A stretch of 40,156 nt of DNA from Shigella phage ESh23, in the sequence record ON528733. The stretch is one strand, 5' to 3'. How positions within the stretch are numbered: the stretch's first letter is position 1; every line of letters begins with the position of its first letter. This document shows positions 1-40,156 of this stretch, one piece after another. The notes below the pieces were generated by a model. The model ran no database searches. It was given only the letters and a program-made list of their open reading frames with translations, and was not told where the DNA came from. The translations under genes were made by a program, and so were the position numbers.

Positions 1-518
1 AGGCCAAGGCTGAGGGTGCTGCCATCGACGCTCAGAACAGACAGGCTCAGGAGATGATTAAGCAGATGAACTACTCTGACGCCAACCTCACTATGCAGGA
101 ACGAGACCTTAAGGAGCAACAGGTAGCTGAGCTTACCGAGACAACTCTGAATGGTATTCGCAATCAGGGCATGGTCCGTGCAGCAGTGGCTGAGTCTGGT
201 CTTGAAGGCAACTCCATGAAACGCATTGAGCGCTCAGTGGAAGGCGACACCGTGAAAGAACGTGCTGGCATCACCGAAAGTTACAACCGCGACTATGCGG
301 CTATCTTCGGGAACCGTATTGCCAACATCGAGAACACCAAGTCTGCCATCAAGGGTCAGGCCAAAATCATCAAGACCAGCCCTCTGGCTCACGCACTTAA
401 TGTCACCTCTGCTGGTATGCAGGGCTACATGGCTGGGGAATCTCTGGCTGCGTCTAAGCCGTCTGGCGGTGCTGCTCCAATTAGTGCTGCTAAAGGCACA
501 CCTACAGGTCATAGCTAA
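1..518 (+). CDS. internal virion protein B (T7 gp14-like), C-terminal part; the N-terminal 23 codons lie at 40087..40156 (circular permutation)
   Basis: ORF is open from window position 1 in the frame of ORF 54..518; joined to 40087..40156 it gives about 195 aa (T7 gp14 is 196 aa); synteny directly upstream of gp15. Confidence 0.8.
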   Translation, partial: AKAEGAAIDAQNRQAQEMIKQMNYSDANLTMQERDLKEQQVAELTETTLNGIRNQGMVRAAVAESGLEGNSMKRIERSVEGDTVKERAGITESYNRDYAAIFGNRIANIENTKSAIKGQAKIIKTSPLAHALNVTSAGMQGYMAGESLAASKPSGGAAPISAAKGTPTGHS

Positions 519-529
519 TAGGAGGACCA

Positions 530-2812
530 ATGGCTAGTAATATCGAATCAGCTTTAGCTAACCGGACTATGGGCCGTGGTCGCGCTCCGGGTAAAGCTAT
601 CAGTGTAGACTATCAGGCGGCGAACATTCAGGGGCAGACTGGTGACTCCGGTCTTGCCCGTGCGCTCACTAACTTCGTTGAGTCGGGCACAGGTCTGTAC
701 AAGCAGTTCCAAGAGAAGTCCAAGAACCTTGGTGACGAGCGGTCTAACGAGATTATCCGTAAGCTGACTCCCCAGCAAAGGCGTGAGGCTATCCAGAATG
801 GTACTCTGCTGTATCAGGACGACCCGTATGCAATGGAGGCACTGAAGGTCAAGACTGGTCGAAACGCTGCCTATGCGGTAGACGATGAGATTAACGTCAA
901 GATTCAGAACGGTGAGTTCCGCACCCGTCAGGAAATGGAGGAGTACCGCCACCAGCGACTTCAGGATGCCGCTAAGTCTTATGCTGACGAGGCTGGTATT
1001 AACCCCAATGATGAGCACTTCCAGCGTGGATTTAACGCAGACATCACGGACAGAAACGTAGCCATCTATGGGTCGTTCAATAAGTATTTCTCTAAGCAAT
1101 CCGAGAATACTGCTATGCTGAACACCCGTGTAGAGCTAAACTCGTTCCTGAATGATGGGGACCTGATGCGCTCACCTGAGGCAGGCAAGTCTTTCATGGC
1201 GTATCTTCGCGATGGGCTGACCACTGCTGCCATTCCGTCCGACCAACGGGCGACTGAAGTTATCTCTCAGACGGTACGGGACGCAATCCAGAAGTCTGGT
1301 GGGGCTAACTTCCTTCAGCAGATTCGACAAGAACGTATCACCCTTAACGGAGTGGACGCCACGGTCGAGGAGATTGTCGGACCAGAGGTATTCAACGCCG
1401 CTCTGATTGAGGCCCAAGGAACCGAGTACAAGCTGGTGGCTAAGTATCAGGAAGACCTAGCGTTGGGAGTTCAGTCTGCCCTGCTTCAGGATGACCCGTC
1501 TATTGGTCTGGCTCAAATCCAGAAACTCAAGGCTCAGAACAACCAGCTCCAGCCGGGTGAGGAGATGACACCACAACGTCAGATGCTCATCAATGCTGAG
1601 GCCAGCCTCTTAGAGACCGTGAAGCGCAAGTCCGCTGAGCAGGCCAAGGAGAACGTTAAGCTCATCCAGACGCAGAACAAGCAGTTGGTCATCGACCAAG
1701 TGTATCAGCGACGACTGGCTGGGGACAACGTGTCCACCAACTATGAGGACCTCCCGGTATCCGAGGCCACTGGTGAGTTCAAGCGTTCGGACATGAACAA
1801 CTACGCCATGGGCAAACTCCGGCAGATTGACCAGATGGATATACCTCAGGCTGCTAAGGATGCTCAGAAGGTGGCGCTGCTGCGGGCTGATACCAACAAT
1901 GGCCCGTTCCGTAACGCCTTCCAGACGCTGACTCAGGATGCTGCGGGTGAGTGGCAAGCTGCGGTAATCCGAGGTCAATACGACCCAGACAAGATGCAGC
2001 GCTTCGAGTCCCTGCGTAAGGTCTACACTCAGGACCCTTCCAGCTTCGCGGCCCTCTACCCTGAGCAGGCCCAATTGTTCACGACTTTCGAGCAGATGGA
2101 CAAGATGGGTCTGGACCCTCAGACTATGATTGACGCTGACAAACAGGCTGCAAGTCAGTCCCGTGAGATGCGCATTGAGTCTGACAAGGCGTGGCGGGAG
2201 CTGAAGAACGACTCGAAGAATAAGGACCTCTCGCGTCTCCCTACGAGTCTGGATGCAAGTGCTCGTAAGGTCTGGGACTCATGGTATTACCGCACAGGTA
2301 ACGCCGATGCAGCTACCCAGAACACTCAGAAGTGGCTGAACGAGAACACCGTGACTTTCAATGATGATGGTCAGGATGGTAAGTCCATCGGCATGGTGTC
2401 CAAACATCAACTTATGGTAGGGGATAACCCTGAGTCGTGGCAGGTTGGTCGAGACATTATAGACACAGCTCGCAAGCAACTCATCAAAACTAACCCTTGG
2501 GTCGTGAACTCTCAGCTCTCTGTAGTTGAGCAGAACGGCTCGGTCTTCCTGCAAGACGCCACTGGGACCATTCGTATTCGCTACGATAAGGAACTGGTGG
2601 GTAAACTGTACCGTGAACAACAGAAACAAGCCGAGGATAAAGCCTACGCTGAAGCTGAACGTAAAGCCAACACCCGCGCTCGCATCGTCGAGACTAAAGC
2701 GGCTGGCGATAAGCGTCGGGCCGAACGTGAAGGTAACATCCAGAAACGCGGTGGTCTGTACGGTGATGTCTCGCTGGAGGGTATCGCAAACACCTTAATC
2801 GGTAAGGAGTAA
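530..2812 (+). CDS. internal virion protein C (T7 gp15-like), 760 aa
   Basis: Size and position between gp14 and gp16; SD GGAGGA upstream of ATG; T7 gp15 is 747 aa. Confidence 0.85.
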   Translation: MASNIESALANRTMGRGRAPGKAISVDYQAANIQGQTGDSGLARALTNFVESGTGLYKQFQEKSKNLGDERSNEIIRKLTPQQRREAIQNGTLLYQDDPYAMEALKVKTGRNAAYAVDDEINVKIQNGEFRTRQEMEEYRHQRLQDAAKSYADEAGINPNDEHFQRGFNADITDRNVAIYGSFNKYFSKQSENTAMLNTRVELNSFLNDGDLMRSPEAGKSFMAYLRDGLTTAAIPSDQRATEVISQTVRDAIQKSGGANFLQQIRQERITLNGVDATVEEIVGPEVFNAALIEAQGTEYKLVAKYQEDLALGVQSALLQDDPSIGLAQIQKLKAQNNQLQPGEEMTPQRQMLINAEASLLETVKRKSAEQAKENVKLIQTQNKQLVIDQVYQRRLAGDNVSTNYEDLPVSEATGEFKRSDMNNYAMGKLRQIDQMDIPQAAKDAQKVALLRADTNNGPFRNAFQTLTQDAAGEWQAAVIRGQYDPDKMQRFESLRKVYTQDPSSFAALYPEQAQLFTTFEQMDKMGLDPQTMIDADKQAASQSREMRIESDKAWRELKNDSKNKDLSRLPTSLDASARKVWDSWYYRTGNADAATQNTQKWLNENTVTFNDDGQDGKSIGMVSKHQLMVGDNPESWQVGRDIIDTARKQLIKTNPWVVNSQLSVVEQNGSVFLQDATGTIRIRYDKELVGKLYREQQKQAEDKAYAEAERKANTRARIVETKAAGDKRRAEREGNIQKRGGLYGDVSLEGIANTLIGKE

Positions 2813-29253: not shown

Positions 29254-29537
29254 TGGCTATTACTAAACGTATTCGTGTGAGTTTTGACCTGAGGATGGTT
29301 GTTAGCTCAAAGGAAGAAGAGACCATGTGTTGTCAGCTCGCTGAGATGACTAAAGCCTACGCCGAGGGTGAGAAGCTGGATGGACTTCAGTTGGCTCTGG
29401 TCAAAACAGCAATCGAGTCAGGTCCTGAGTCTGCCCTTGAAATTGCCATCAAGAAGACCATCAAGGAGGAGCTGGTAGACGCCTTTGGTGATGACCAGTT
29501 CGGAGTATCCAACCTGCGATTCGAGGTCAAGCAATGA
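29253..29537 (+). CDS. hypothetical protein, 94 aa, possibly T7 gp5.5-like
   Basis: ATG overlaps gp5 stop; AAGGAG SD; N-terminus MAITKRIRVSFD resembles my recollection of gp5.5; uncertain. Confidence 0.55.
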   Translation: MAITKRIRVSFDLRMVVSSKEEETMCCQLAEMTKAYAEGEKLDGLQLALVKTAIESGPESALEIAIKKTIKEELVDAFGDDQFGVSNLRFEVKQ

Positions 29538-29743
29538 GTGAATACTTACGGGTCCTAGCGGCCCTTAAGTCCTGCCCGAAGACCTTCCAGTCAAACTACG
29601 TGCGCAACAATGCGGCACTGGTGGCTGAGGCTGCGAGTCGTGGACATCTAAGCTGCCTGTCTATGGACGGGCGTAACAACGGTGCGTGGGAGATTACCGC
29701 TGCTGGCACCAAGTTCCTGAACCAACACGGAGGCTGTCTATGA
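29534..29743 (+). CDS. T7 gp5.7-like protein (inhibitor of sigma-S RNAP in T7), 69 aa
   Basis: MSEYLRVLAALKSCPKTFQSNYVRNNAALVAEAASRGHLSCL...GAWEITAAGTKFL nearly collinear with recalled T7 gp5.7. Confidence 0.85.
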   Translation: MSEYLRVLAALKSCPKTFQSNYVRNNAALVAEAASRGHLSCLSMDGRNNGAWEITAAGTKFLNQHGGCL

Positions 29744-30189
29744 AGATACCTGAAAGTCTGAAAGAGCTGGTCCTTGAAATGGGTGAGTGCGAGAAGGAGC
29801 ACCGCAAGTACGCGGAGTTCTACGCATCTTGGTCGTACACCCTGTCAGAGAAGGACGTTGAGAACTACGCCGAGTCTCCTTCTGAGGCTTATGAATGGCG
29901 TCCGTTCATCGGCCTGACCATCGTAGCCAGCGGTATGTGGAATGACAGCTATGGCTCAGAGGTAAATGATTGGGGAGTGTATCGCCCGGTTGAGAAGGAG
30001 ACCGAAATTTCTTCAAGCTTCTGGAGCCTAATGTCCCACCTCAACTCAGAGGACAACGACATGGCCCATGAGTTCGCCCACAAATGGCTGAAGCCTGAGG
30101 TGACTCTAGAGCGTATTGAGGAGCCGAAAGTTTCCTTGATGCCAGCTACAGTTGCTATGGCTACAGGAGGTCTGGACGATGGGTTCTGA
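29740..30189 (+). CDS. acidic hypothetical protein, 149 aa, at the position of T7 gene 5.9
   Basis: ATG overlaps gp5.7 stop; Glu/Asp-rich; not similar to recalled gp5.9. Confidence 0.6.
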   Translation: MKIPESLKELVLEMGECEKEHRKYAEFYASWSYTLSEKDVENYAESPSEAYEWRPFIGLTIVASGMWNDSYGSEVNDWGVYRPVEKETEISSSFWSLMSHLNSEDNDMAHEFAHKWLKPEVTLERIEEPKVSLMPATVAMATGGLDDGF

Positions 30190-39458: not shown

Positions 39459-39479
39459 TTAACTATCACTATAGGGACT
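39459..39479 (+). promoter_or_regulatory. phage RNAP promoter (phi13 position): TTAACTATCACTATAGGGACT, bracketed by a 9-bp inverted repeat (39443..39451 / 39478..39486)
   Basis: Conserved promoter motif; GGCCTATAG and CTATAGGCC read directly. Confidence 0.7.
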
Positions 39480-39507: not shown

Positions 39508-39966
39508 ATGTATATTCGTAAGGCTACTGAACCAGATGTTCACTACCTATTGGGACATCTCTCACAGGATGACGTTAATGAGTGCATGGCAAACTTCGGG
39601 TCGACCAAAGGTCTGACCGACAGAATGCTCAGCCACCTCACTCCGTCATCTGTGGTTTTGACGAATGGCGTAGGCGAAGTGTTTGCCTATGGAGGGAACC
39701 AAGGAGATAACGTGTGGTTCCTGACTTCAAGTCTTGTCGAAAGGTTACGTCCTAAAGACAAGCGTGAGTTCATTCAGCGCATCTCTGAGTACAGGGACTT
39801 AATGTTAGACCAATACGGGACCATCTGGAACTACGTGTGGTCAGGCAACAAGTCTCACATTAGATTCTTGCGGTTGCTGGGAGCTAAGTTTCACCCTGAG
39901 GTGACTATTAGTCCGGTAACAGGTGAGCGTTTTCAACTATTCACAATCTCTAAGGAGGACGTATGA
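39508..39966 (+). CDS. internal virion/assembly protein (T7 gp13 position), 152 aa
   Basis: Synteny between tail tube B and gp14; SD AGGAG; sequence identity to T7 gp13 not confirmed from memory. Confidence 0.6.
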   Translation: MYIRKATEPDVHYLLGHLSQDDVNECMANFGSTKGLTDRMLSHLTPSSVVLTNGVGEVFAYGGNQGDNVWFLTSSLVERLRPKDKREFIQRISEYRDLMLDQYGTIWNYVWSGNKSHIRFLRLLGAKFHPEVTISPVTGERFQLFTISKEDV

Positions 39967-40094
39967 GCCTTAAAGGTTTAATAGCCACCAAGCTCCTATG
40001 CCCTAAGTGCGGACTACATCCAACATTAGCTGGCTACTCCGGGTCTTCGTATTGGTGGTGCTACAAGTGCAACCGGGAGGTGAAAGATGTGTGA
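39963..40094 (+). CDS. zinc-ribbon mini-protein, 43 aa (CPKC-x16-CYKC)
   Basis: ATG overlaps gp13 stop and stop overlaps gp14 ATG; two CxxC pairs spaced as a zinc ribbon. Confidence 0.45.
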   Translation: MSLKGLIATKLLCPKCGLHPTLAGYSGSSYWWCYKCNREVKDV

Positions 40095-40156
40095 ACCAGT
40101 AAGTATCGGCATGGGTATACTGGCTGTAGCCGGGGCCACTATGTCCGCATCTCAAC
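40087..40156 (+). CDS. internal virion protein B (T7 gp14-like), N-terminal 23 codons; continues at window position 1
   Basis: MCEPVSIGMGILAVAGATMSASQ resembles the T7 gp14 N-terminus (MCWAAAIPIAISGAQAISG...); reading frame is continuous across the window junction. Confidence 0.8.
   Translation, partial: MCEPVSIGMGILAVAGATMSASQ

What the first reader, a model, noticed from the sequence alone, without database searches (positions are those of the whole stretch)
39963..40094. Zinc-ribbon mini-protein between gp13 and gp14
A 43-codon ORF is exactly nested between the gp13 stop and the gp14 start (ATGA and ATGTGTGA overlaps). It encodes two CxxC pairs 16 residues apart (CPKC…CYKC), the signature of a zinc ribbon. 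T7 has no gene here as far as I recall. Its position among internal virion protein genes suggests a small structural or regulatory nucleic-acid-binding factor.
Basis: partly seen in the sequence, partly recalled or inferred. Interest (0 to 1): 0.45.

Follow-up and report, generated by a model that had tools for sequence, protein, structure and literature searches.

The report
Relocated zinc-ribbon mini-gene, T7-like phage
A real, conserved but mostly unannotated 43-codon zinc-ribbon gene sits as a clean 124-base insertion between two internal-virion-protein genes of this T7-like (Kayfunavirus) phage. Its relatives normally lie in the DNA-metabolism region of other phages, so it looks like a roaming accessory gene of unknown function, not a virion part.

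Summary
ORF 39963..40094 (+) encodes 43 aa with CPKC-16-CYKC. It overlaps the gp13 stop (ATGA) and the gp14 start (ATGTGTGA).

It is a genuine gene:
- dN/dS is 0.09 against an 81%-identical phage.
- One diverged relative shows 6 synonymous and 0 non-synonymous changes.
- The four Cys and a YWW motif are invariant in 18 homologues.
- AlphaFold gives a helix plus a three-stranded zinc ribbon.

Its position is secondary. The ORF is an exact 124-nt presence/absence polymorphism. It is present in SH5, Dev2, vB_EclP_26 and seven metagenome contigs. It is absent from SH4, SFPH2, K1F and most other Kayfunavirus.

Homologues (60-71% identity) normally lie directly after gene 5.7 in Studiervirinae, or after a dGTP-diphosphohydrolase-like gene in Molineuxvirinae-type phages. 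The family's K/R-E-V tail is encoded by AAGGAGGTG, a Shine-Dalgarno site for whatever gene follows.

The same gp13|gp14 junction carries an Endo VII homing endonuclease in other Kayfunavirus. The insert is less diverged than its flanks in all eight comparisons.

The family is uncatalogued: four clusters among 1.84 billion proteins, and no Pfam, PHROG or literature record. Function is unknown. A small host-factor-binding or nucleic-acid-binding accessory protein is likelier than a virion component. Interest is moderate.

The parts
39462..39477 (+). Phage-RNA-polymerase promoter-like site (phi13 equivalent) upstream of gp13. It would drive late transcription of gp13, the mini-gene and gp14.
   Evidence: Perfect match to ACTATCACTATAGGGA. 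This motif occurs 12 times on the + strand against 0.29 expected. T7 has promoter phi13 at the equivalent place. Function is inferred, not shown.
39508..39966 (+). gp13 (internal virion/assembly protein A), 152 aa. It is shortened by 4 codons compared with relatives that have an empty site (…KEDV* instead of …KEDVCVNP*).
   Evidence: Pfam Phage_T7_Gp13 E 6e-40. PHROG 308 E 4e-44. Compared with SFPH2 gp13.
39952..39958 (+). Shine-Dalgarno AAGGAGG. It serves gp14 in empty-site phages and is taken over here by the mini-gene.
   Evidence: Read from the sequence. Alignment of filled and empty alleles.
39963..40086 (+). The 124-nt insertion itself (ATGAGCC…GTGAAAG). It is bounded by ATG on both sides, so its position is ambiguous by 3 nt.
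   Evidence: Exact gap of 124 columns in SFPH2 against window/SH5/Dev2/EclP26. The two-piece megablast matches of most relatives lack it.
39963..40094 (+). Mini-gene: a 43-aa zinc-ribbon protein.
   Evidence: dN/dS 0.09. 6 synonymous / 0 non-synonymous changes. 18-sequence alignment. AF2 model pLDDT 76.
39999..40010 (+). First zinc knuckle, CPKC (C13, C16).
   Evidence: Invariant Cys. Regex scan.
40050..40070 (+). Invariant YWW followed by the second zinc knuckle CYKC (Y30, W31, W32, C33, K35, C36).
   Evidence: Invariant columns in 18 homologues, including the 39%-identical L031.
40075..40082 (+). Shine-Dalgarno GGGAGGTG carried inside the mini-gene's R-E-V codons. It is the new ribosome-binding site for gp14.
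   Evidence: Sequence. The same AAGGAGGTG/GGGAGGTG tail is found in family members at other loci. The SH5 authors listed CCGGGAGGTgaaagATG as the gp14 SD (PMC4925675).
40087..40156 (+). 5' end of gp14 (internal virion protein B). It continues at window 1..518.
   Evidence: 70 + 518 = 588 nt. The translation is 87-100% identical to gp14 of EclP26, SH5 and Dev2.

Best explanation
SHOWN:
- The ORF is a genuine protein-coding accessory gene for a 43-aa basic single zinc-ribbon protein.
- It belongs to a small, uncatalogued family found almost only in Autographiviridae.
- Family members are compact, translationally coupled units. Their ATG overlaps the stop of the upstream gene. Their last conserved codons (K/R-E-V = AAGGAGGTG or GGGAGGTG) form the ribosome-binding site of the downstream gene.
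- The family's usual home is the DNA-metabolism (class II) region: directly after gene 5.7 in Studiervirinae, or after a dGTP-diphosphohydrolase-like gene in Molineuxvirinae-type phages.
- In this Kayfunavirus lineage a copy sits as an exact 124-nt, start-codon-to-start-codon insertion in the gp13|gp14 junction. It takes over the original SD and ATG of gp14, gives gp14 a new SD, and trims four codons from gp13.
- The insertion is polymorphic among near-identical phages. It is embedded in a recombination tract (SH4 vs SH5). It is less diverged than its flanks.

INFERRED:
- It reached this junction by illegitimate recombination at SD/ATG microhomology.
- It has since been exchanged among Kayfunavirus by homologous recombination.
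- It is now transcribed late from the phi13-like promoter.
- The protein acts on its own as a small binder of a host protein or of nucleic acid. That would make it a host-takeover or counter-defence accessory factor of the same kind as its usual neighbours gp5.5, gp5.7 and gp5.9.
- It is not an obligatory virion or assembly component.
For: Coding:
- dN/dS 0.09 against EclP26.
- 6 synonymous / 0 non-synonymous changes against L023.
- Invariant 4 Cys plus YWW in 18 sequences.
- Strong SD AAGGAGG 4 nt before the ATG.
- AF2 model: helix 4-10 plus three strands between two knuckles, pLDDT 76.
- The top Foldseek matches are zinc ribbons, though none is significant.

Insertion:
- Exact 124-nt gap in SFPH2.
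- Most of the 222 related records match in two pieces that lack it.

Other contexts:
- tblastn found 31 phage records. Only SH5, Dev2 (two records) and EclP26 have the gene at 13|14. The rest lie beside 5.5/5.7/5.9/exonuclease or the ligase gene.
- Neighbour table of 25 loci.
- The window's own 5.7 junction lacks the gene.

Built-in SD.

Recombination:
- Within the 3.6 kb compared, SH5 and SH4 show 0 differences outside locus positions 1983-2776 and 39 inside, around the indel.
- The mini-ORF is at the low extreme of divergence in all 8 comparisons. Against L023 it has 6 differences, while no 43-codon flank window has fewer than 13.

Dispensability:
- SH4 lacks the gene, is viable, and lysed the same 3 of 31 strains as SH5 and Dev2 (PMC4925675).

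Late promoter.

Phage-restricted small family:
- 4 clusters in 1.84e9 representatives.
- None in 185,579 GTDB genomes.
- No significant Pfam, PHROG, NCBIfam or PADLOC hit.
Against: - No direct evidence of expression, zinc binding or any binding partner.
- The functional guess rests only on guilt by association with class II neighbours. That association is broken in this very genome, where timing would be late rather than middle.
- The lower divergence of the insert could reflect nucleotide-level constraint rather than recent spread.
- The direction of the SH4/SH5 event (gain or loss) is unresolved. At most of the 39 sites SH4 carries the odd allele, which fits loss in SH4 as well as gain in SH5.
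- Small ORFs are under-called, so the family may be larger than the protein databases suggest.
Confidence: 0.6

Rival explanations
1. Virion-associated or assembly factor. The mini-protein is made with gp13-gp16. It is either packaged in the internal core or helps core assembly, perhaps by binding the DNA end.
For: - It is co-transcribed and translationally coupled with gp13 and gp14 behind a phi13-like promoter.
- It uses the strong SD that otherwise serves gp14.
- It is basic (net about +4, counted from the sequence).
- T7 virions do contain small proteins (established knowledge).
Against: - It is absent from most Kayfunavirus, including SH4, which is identical to SH5 in the rest of the region compared, and from T7.
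- Homologues sit in the DNA-metabolism region in most of the records that carry one.
- No consistent structural neighbour across contexts.
- The published virion proteomics covered only SH1, SH3 and SH4, none of which has the ORF, so it says nothing either way.
Confidence: 0.12
2. Selfish or site-occupying element linked to homing-endonuclease traffic. The gp13|gp14 junction is the home of an Endo VII-family homing endonuclease gene. The mini-gene allele may persist and spread because it disrupts or competes for that site, giving immunity to cleavage. Alternatively it may hitch-hike on double-strand-break repair there.
For: - A 133-aa Endo VII gene (Pfam E 5e-28) is inserted within 5 nt of the same point in Kayfunavirus PDP21P1.
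- Similar ~390-nt larger spans occur in pO91, CY1, U8 and ST21.
- A stump of the endonuclease gene remains in Dickeya phage Monomax.
- The mini-gene shows a presence/absence polymorphism with an ~800-nt conversion-like tract.
- It is younger-looking than its flanks.
Against: - It has no nuclease domain.
- The family's main locations (after 5.7, near ligase) are not known to be homing sites of that endonuclease.
- The gp14 5' sequence of the mini-gene allele is the same as in empty alleles, so a target inside gp14 would still be cleavable.
- Protein-level purifying selection across genera argues that the product has a function of its own.
Confidence: 0.1
3. Remnant or derivative of another zinc-binding module. 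It could be a decayed stump of the Endo VII homing endonuclease's N-terminal CxxC region, or a copy of the primase (gp4) zinc-binding domain acting as a decoy.
For: - Monomax shows that homing-endonuclease stumps do persist at this junction.
- Pairwise BLASTP against the window's own primase N-terminus gives 9/28 identities, E 8e-4 for that single comparison, with similar CxxC-15/16-CxxC spacing.
Against: - hhalign of the family against the Endo VII protein gives probability 0.6%.
- The BLASTP score against primase (39 raw) comes almost entirely from the four aligned Cys.
- Pfam Prim_Zn_Ribbon is not among the hits even at E <= 10.
- The family keeps a fixed 40-46 aa length, start and stop in several genera and contexts. 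That is not how a decaying fragment behaves.
Confidence: 0.04
4. Not a gene. The 124 nt would be a non-coding spacer or RNA element that merely happens to be open, for example to uncouple gp13 and gp14 translation.
For: - The ORF is unannotated in SH5 and Dev2.
- The chance of an open 43-codon frame is not small.
- The insert supplies an SD for gp14.
Against: - Substitutions are overwhelmingly synonymous.
- Protein homologues at 60-71% identity occur in other genera and contexts, where DNA identity is low.
- No Rfam match.
- The predicted RNA fold is weaker than shuffled sequence, z = +1.39.
Confidence: 0.03

Closest known systems
Small class II accessory proteins of T7-like phages (gp5.5 H-NS/tRNA binder, gp5.7 RNA-polymerase inhibitor, gp5.9 RecBCD inhibitor)
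   Same: - Size class of 40-100 aa.
- Non-essential and patchily distributed.
- The family's usual position is between gene 5.7 and 5.9/6.
- Translationally coupled to its neighbours.
   Different: - No sequence similarity to any of them.
- It is a Cys4 zinc ribbon.
- In this genome it has left that region and sits in the late structural operon.
- Its target is unknown.
Generic zinc-ribbon mini-proteins and domains (RNA polymerase subunit Rpo12/RpoP, TFIIB/TFS-type ribbons, IS1595 transposase Zn ribbon PF12760, E. coli YfgJ, Thermus ZifS)
   Same: - Two CxxC knuckles flanking a three-stranded sheet in the AF2 model.
- These are the top, weak, fold and profile matches.
   Different: - No match reaches a family threshold: PF12760 scores 18.2 bits against a 25.4 cut-off, and the best Foldseek E is 0.43.
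- The invariant YWW before the second knuckle and the conserved MSLKGL N-terminus are specific to this family.
Free-standing homing endonuclease genes of T7-like phages (here the Endo VII-family gene at the same gp13|gp14 junction)
   Same: - Precise intergenic presence/absence polymorphism at the same junction.
- A flanking recombination tract.
- The insert is younger-looking than its flanks.
- Both inserts end in GGAGGTGAA, which supplies the SD for gp14.
   Different: - 43 aa with no nuclease domain.
- No evidence that it promotes its own transfer.
Phage morons (independently acquired accessory genes between conserved genes)
   Same: An extra, dispensable gene wedged between two conserved late genes and absent from close relatives.
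   Different: - Classical morons bring their own promoter and terminator.
- This unit has neither. It relies on overlapping start/stop codons and a built-in SD, that is, on translational coupling.

Membership tests
Zinc-ribbon fold (Cys4) | Two CxxC/CPxCG-type zinc knuckles | tested here: met
   C13-x2-C16 and C33-x2-C36. All four Cys are invariant in 18 homologues.
Zinc-ribbon fold (Cys4) | Three-stranded antiparallel sheet with the knuckles at its ends | tested here: met
   The AF2 model has strands 21-25, 28-33 and 38-40. Mean pLDDT is 76 (84-88 over residues 11-40) from a 2-sequence alignment. The best fold matches are zinc ribbons but are not significant.
Zinc-ribbon fold (Cys4) | Binds one Zn2+ | not testable with these tools
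   Needs ICP-MS or a PAR assay on the peptide.
Any curated zinc-ribbon family (Pfam PF12760 Zn_ribbon_IS1595, PF14369, PF08273 Prim_Zn_Ribbon; NCBIfam; PHROGs) | Score at or above the family's curated cut-off | tested here: not met
   Best Pfam hit is 18.2 bits against a cut-off of 25.4. Prim_Zn_Ribbon is not listed. NCBIfam best is 15.5 against 54. No PHROG at E below 0.004.
T7-type internal virion / core proteins | Gene conserved at this position across T7-like phages | tested here: not met
   Absent from T7, K1F, SH4, SFPH2 and most of 286 related records.
T7-type internal virion / core proteins | Protein detected in purified virions | not tested
   The published proteomics covered SH1, SH3 and SH4 only, and none of these has the ORF (PMC4925675).
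Homing endonuclease gene | Encodes a nuclease domain (HNH/Endo VII, GIY-YIG, LAGLIDADG…) | tested here: not met
   43 aa with no nuclease family hit. hhalign against the local Endo VII gene gives probability 0.6%.
Homing endonuclease gene | Presence/absence polymorphism at a fixed site with co-converted flanks | tested here: met
   Exact 124-nt indel. The 39 SH4/SH5 differences are confined to ~800 nt around it.
Moron | Own promoter and terminator flanking the inserted gene | tested here: not met
   The insert is coding from its first to its last base and overlaps both neighbours. None of the 12 promoter-like sites lies in it.
The 'MSLKGL…YWWCxKC' mini-protein family defined here | 40-46 aa; M-S-L-x-G-L N-terminus; CxxC-16(15)-CxxC; YWW before the second knuckle; K/R-E-V tail encoding an SD | tested here: met
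   The window protein carries every feature. HMMER E is 1.9e-27 to the 2-sequence profile, which includes it. tblastn E values to other members are 1e-8 to 1e-14.

The most novel reading that the evidence does not exclude
The mini-gene would be a minimal 'plug-in' mobile unit. It is a start-codon-to-start-codon cassette whose conserved C-terminal K/R-E-V codons double as a consensus Shine-Dalgarno site. That lets it be spliced by SD/ATG microhomology into any translationally coupled gene junction without disturbing the downstream gene.

Under this reading, its spread through diverged Kayfunavirus at the gp13|gp14 junction reflects competition with, or immunity against, the Endo VII homing endonuclease that uses the same junction. 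This would be a non-nuclease element taking part in homing-site conflict.
Probability: 0.1. Interest if true: 0.7.

Novelty: new member of a known kind. Interest (0 to 1): 0.38.

Why it matters
- It is a clean example of a functional small gene that standard annotation misses. It is unannotated in SH5, Dev2, TM1, Ninurta, KpV763, NJ2 and others.
- It defines a compact zinc-ribbon family with no entry in Pfam, PHROGs or the literature searched.
- It shows that the gp13|gp14 junction of T7-like phages tolerates foreign inserts: this gene, or an Endo VII homing endonuclease. That is useful for phage engineering.
- It shows how a translationally coupled unit with a built-in ribosome-binding site can move from the middle to the late region of a genome.
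- Nature provides a near-isogenic pair, SH4 (without the gene) and SH5 (with it). The two are identical outside an ~800-nt patch in the 3.6 kb compared here, and the SH5 paper reports 33 of 45 SH5 genes as 100% identical to SH4, so other differences exist. This still makes a functional test cheap.
- If the product proves to be a host-factor or defence inhibitor, it would add a new small-protein tool. If not, the finding is an ordinary accessory ORF.

Tried and rejected
1. Curated family assignment. Pfam, PHROGs (single protein and all 8 members), NCBIfam and PADLOC gave only sub-threshold generic zinc-ribbon hits.
2. Solved-structure relatives by sequence. Nothing below E 0.2; only the Rpo12 knuckle.
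3. Foldseek against PDB. 0 hits at E <= 0.001.
4. Distant homologues.
   - HMMER over 1.84e9 representatives found only 4 clusters.
   - The word-indexed search found 2.
   - IMG/VR gave 3 loci.
   - The GTDB genome collection (185,579 species representatives) gave none.
   - Metagenomes gave 5 loci, including one distant relative, L031.
5. Paralogue in the window. None; the only other CxxC…CxxC is the primase zinc-binding domain.
6. Origin from the primase zinc-binding domain. The weak pairwise hit is driven by the Cys residues. Rejected.
7. Origin from the N-terminus of the Endo VII homing endonuclease. hhalign probability 0.6%. Rejected.
8. RNA element. No Rfam match, and the fold is weaker than shuffles. 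Rejected.
9. Literature. 'Kayfunavirus + zinc', 'Autographiviridae + zinc ribbon' and 'gp5.7 + gp5.9 + zinc' returned nothing on this gene. The SH5 paper does not annotate it.
10. Dickeya phage Monomax seemed to align across the insert. It actually carries a stump of the homing endonuclease, not the mini-gene.
11. The direction of the SH4/SH5 event (gain or loss) could not be resolved from allele sharing.

Full report
**1. The observation.**
- The window carries an ATG-initiated ORF at 39963..40094 (+). It encodes MSLKGLIATKLLCPKCGLHPTLAGYSGSSYWWCYKCNREVKDV.
- Its ATG overlaps the TGA of the upstream gene (ATGA at 39963-39966).
- Its TGA lies in ATGTGTGA (40087-40094), where the downstream gene starts.
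- The upstream gene (39508..39966) is gp13: Pfam Phage_T7_Gp13 E 6e-40, PHROG 308.
- The downstream gene is gp14. It runs off the end of the window and continues at 1..518, so the window is a circularly permuted complete genome (70 + 518 = 588 nt).
- T7 has only a 4-nt gap between genes 13 and 14.
- The description is therefore accurate.

**2. What the genome is.**
- The region is 98.5% identical to Citrobacter phage SH5 and 97.8% identical to Cronobacter phage Dev2. Both belong to Kayfunavirus (Studiervirinae, Autographiviridae).

**3. It is a real gene.**
- Against Enterobacter phage vB_EclP_26 (81% DNA identity; the only GenBank record seen that annotates the ORF, as 'hypothetical protein'), the ORF shows 13 synonymous and 6 non-synonymous differences. 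That gives dN/dS 0.09, compared with 0.16 for gp13 and 0.08 for gp14.
- Against metagenome contig L023 it shows six differences, all synonymous.
- In an alignment of 18 homologues at 39-91% identity, M1, C13, C16, Y30, W31, W32, C33, K35, C36 and E39 are invariant.
- AlphaFold2, run on a 2-sequence alignment, gives a short N-terminal helix (residues 4-10) and three strands between the two knuckles. Mean pLDDT is 76.
- Foldseek against the PDB returns no significant hit. Its top matches are zinc ribbons such as the NUDIX N-terminal ribbon, ZifS, YfgJ and RPC10/C11.
- There is no Rfam match, and the RNA folds less well than shuffled sequence.
- The 'spurious ORF' and 'RNA element' readings are rejected.

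**4. It is an insertion.**
- An alignment with Shigella phage SFPH2 shows an exact 124-column gap.
  - SFPH2 reads …AAGGAGGACGT|ATGTGTGAACC….
  - The window reads …AAGGAGGACGT[ATGAGCC…GGGAGGTGAAAG]ATGTGTGAACC….
- In empty-site phages, gp13 is 156 aa and overlaps gp14 by 16 nt.
- The insertion has three effects.
  - It truncates gp13 by four codons.
  - It takes over the SD (AAGGAGG, 39952-39958) and the ATG that served gp14.
  - It supplies gp14 with a new SD (GGGAGGTG, 40075-40082), which lies inside the mini-gene's own R-E-V codons.
- Most of the 222-286 related phage records match in two pieces that lack the 124 nt.
- The gene is present in SH5, Dev2 and vB_EclP_26, and on seven metagenome or SRA contigs, always between gp13 and gp14.

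**5. Where its relatives live.**
- tblastn against 50,697 phage records finds 31 true hits.
- Apart from SH5, Dev2 (two records) and EclP26, every fetched example falls into one of two contexts.
  - (A) Directly after gene 5.7, again with an ATGA overlap. It is followed by gene 6, by gp5.9 (Pfam Phage_T7_Gp5_9 E 1e-17), or by another ORF. This holds in Kayfunavirus TM1, Ningirsuvirus Ninurta, Berlinvirus NJ2 and Citrof5, and Przondovirus KpV763 and 175007.
  - (B) Directly after a dGTP_diPhyd_N protein and upstream of DNA ligase. This holds in the Molineuxvirinae phage F5M1D and similar contigs.
- In most of these records the ORF is unannotated.
- The window's own 5.7 junction (29740) lacks it. 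There, 5.7 is followed by a 149-aa ORF that is homologous to the ORF following the mini-gene in Citrof5.
- No record has two copies.
- One distant relative (37-39% identity, keeping GGYWWCYKCxKE) lies among other small CxxC ORFs on an unrelated metagenome contig.
- The gp13|gp14 position is therefore a secondary relocation. It cannot be used to infer a virion role.

**6. Cassette anatomy.**
- In every context the last conserved codons, K/R-E-V, are AAGGAGGTG or GGGAGGTG. They lie 4-8 nt before the start of the next gene.
- TM1 ends …AAGGAGGTGAAAGAATGA, and the window ends …GGGAGGTGAAAGATGTGTGA. The unit therefore runs from its own ATG to the ATG of the next gene.
- I infer that it was inserted by illegitimate recombination at SD/ATG microhomology. 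This is not shown.

**7. Population behaviour.**
- SH4 (no insert) and SH5 (insert) are identical over the flanking 1.8 kb and 0.85 kb. They differ at 39 sites, all confined to locus positions 1983-2776 around the indel. This is a recombination tract.
- At most of those sites SH4 carries the odd allele, so the direction (gain or loss) is unresolved.
- Across eight comparisons the mini-ORF is always at the low end of divergence relative to 43-codon windows of gp13 and gp14.

| Contig | Mini-ORF | gp13 | gp14 |
|---|---|---|---|
| L023 | 6 differences (no flank window below 13); dS 0.24 | dS 0.88 | dS 0.78 |
| L025 | 99.2% identity | 76.7% identity | not compared here |

- Either the cassette has spread recently by recombination through diverged backgrounds, or its synonymous sites are constrained. 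This is unresolved.

**8. A hot junction.**
- In Kayfunavirus PDP21P1 the same junction, within 5 nt, carries a 133-aa Endo VII-family homing endonuclease (Pfam E 5e-28). It also ends in GGAGGTGAA just before gp14.
- Similar spans suggest the endonuclease is also present in pO91, CY1, U8 and ST21.
- Dickeya phage Monomax keeps a 29-codon stump of it.
- The mini-protein is not related to the endonuclease (hhalign probability 0.6%).
- It is not convincingly related to the primase zinc-binding domain either. The BLASTP hit is driven by the four Cys, and there is no Prim_Zn_Ribbon hit.

**9. Expression context.**
- A perfect copy of the phage promoter-like motif ACTATCACTATAGGGA lies at 39462-39477, before gp13. 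The motif has 12 sites on the + strand against 0.29 expected.
- T7 has promoter phi13 at the equivalent position.
- The relocated gene is therefore probably expressed late, whereas at its usual locus it would be a middle gene. This is an inference.

**10. Function.**
- Nothing is catalogued.
  - HMMER over 1.84 billion representatives finds four clusters, all named 'hypothetical' or 'uncharacterized'.
  - There is no bacterial or archaeal copy.
  - No paper was found.
- SH4, SH5 and Dev2 lysed the same 3 of 31 strains (PMC4925675). The gene is therefore dispensable and not a host-range determinant on that panel.
- My best guess, at roughly one chance in three, is a stand-alone binder of a host protein or nucleic acid, of the host-takeover or counter-defence type. 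This rests on three things:
  - its usual neighbours gp5.5, gp5.7 and gp5.9;
  - its patchy distribution;
  - its small, basic zinc-ribbon build.
- A virion role (about 0.12) and a role in homing-site conflict (about 0.1) remain open.

**11. Verdict.**
- This is a new, uncatalogued member of a known kind, the small phage zinc-ribbon accessory protein.
- Two features are of extra interest. It has moved from the middle to the late region as a self-contained, translationally coupled cassette. It also shares its junction with a homing endonuclease.
- Interest is moderate (0.38).

Noticed in passing
window 40087..40156 joined to 1..518: The window is a circularly permuted complete phage genome. gp14 starts 70 nt before the window end and continues for 518 nt from position 1. 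gp15, gp16 and gp17 follow at 530.., 2818.. and 6782...
   Followed up: partly
L007 (Kayfunavirus PDP21P1) 2037..2438; L019 (Dickeya phage Monomax) about 1481..1569: An Endo VII-family homing endonuclease (133 aa) occupies the same gp13|gp14 junction in other Kayfunavirus. It turns the gp14 start into GTG. Monomax keeps only a 29-codon stump of it (MKVCVRCGELK…).
   Followed up: partly
window 29534..30189; L008, L018, L033: The gene 5.7 | gene 6 junction is a variable slot in Kayfunavirus. Spans run from about 537 nt (empty, ST31) to about 980 nt. The window holds a 149-aa ORF of unknown function (29740..30189), homologous to an ORF in Berlinvirus Citrof5. TM1 holds the zinc-ribbon mini-gene there instead.
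   Followed up: partly
window, + strand: 6715, 12194, 16395, 19932, 21680, 22531, 24628, 27011, 31176, 33998, 34994, 39462: There are twelve phage-RNA-polymerase promoter-like sites matching ACTATCACTATAGGGA with up to 3 mismatches, against 0.29 expected by chance. Four are perfect matches.
   Followed up: no
L001 vs L016 (SH5 vs SH4), locus positions 1983..2776: SH4 and SH5 are identical across the rest of the 3.6-kb region compared. They differ at 39 sites in one ~800-nt patch covering the end of gp13, the indel and gp14. This looks like a discrete recombination tract.
   Followed up: yes
L009 (Dickeya phage Ninurta) 2126..2488: The 120-aa ORF immediately downstream of the mini-gene also begins with a Cys-rich motif (MSHYDCKKCGAYPTCDC…). 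It has no Pfam hit.
   Followed up: no
L031 (metagenome contig SDBU01003110.1) 513..1745: A distant homologue of the mini-protein (MKIYICPICG…GGYWWCYKCMKE) sits in a run of small ORFs. At least two others carry paired CxxC motifs. The contig does not look like a T7-like phage.
   Followed up: no
GenBank MT350292.1: A record named 'Enterococcus phage EFA-1', with host listed as Enterococcus faecalis, matches Kayfunavirus gp13-gp14 and 5.7-6 regions at 87-96% identity. The host label is probably wrong, or the isolate was contaminated.
   Followed up: no
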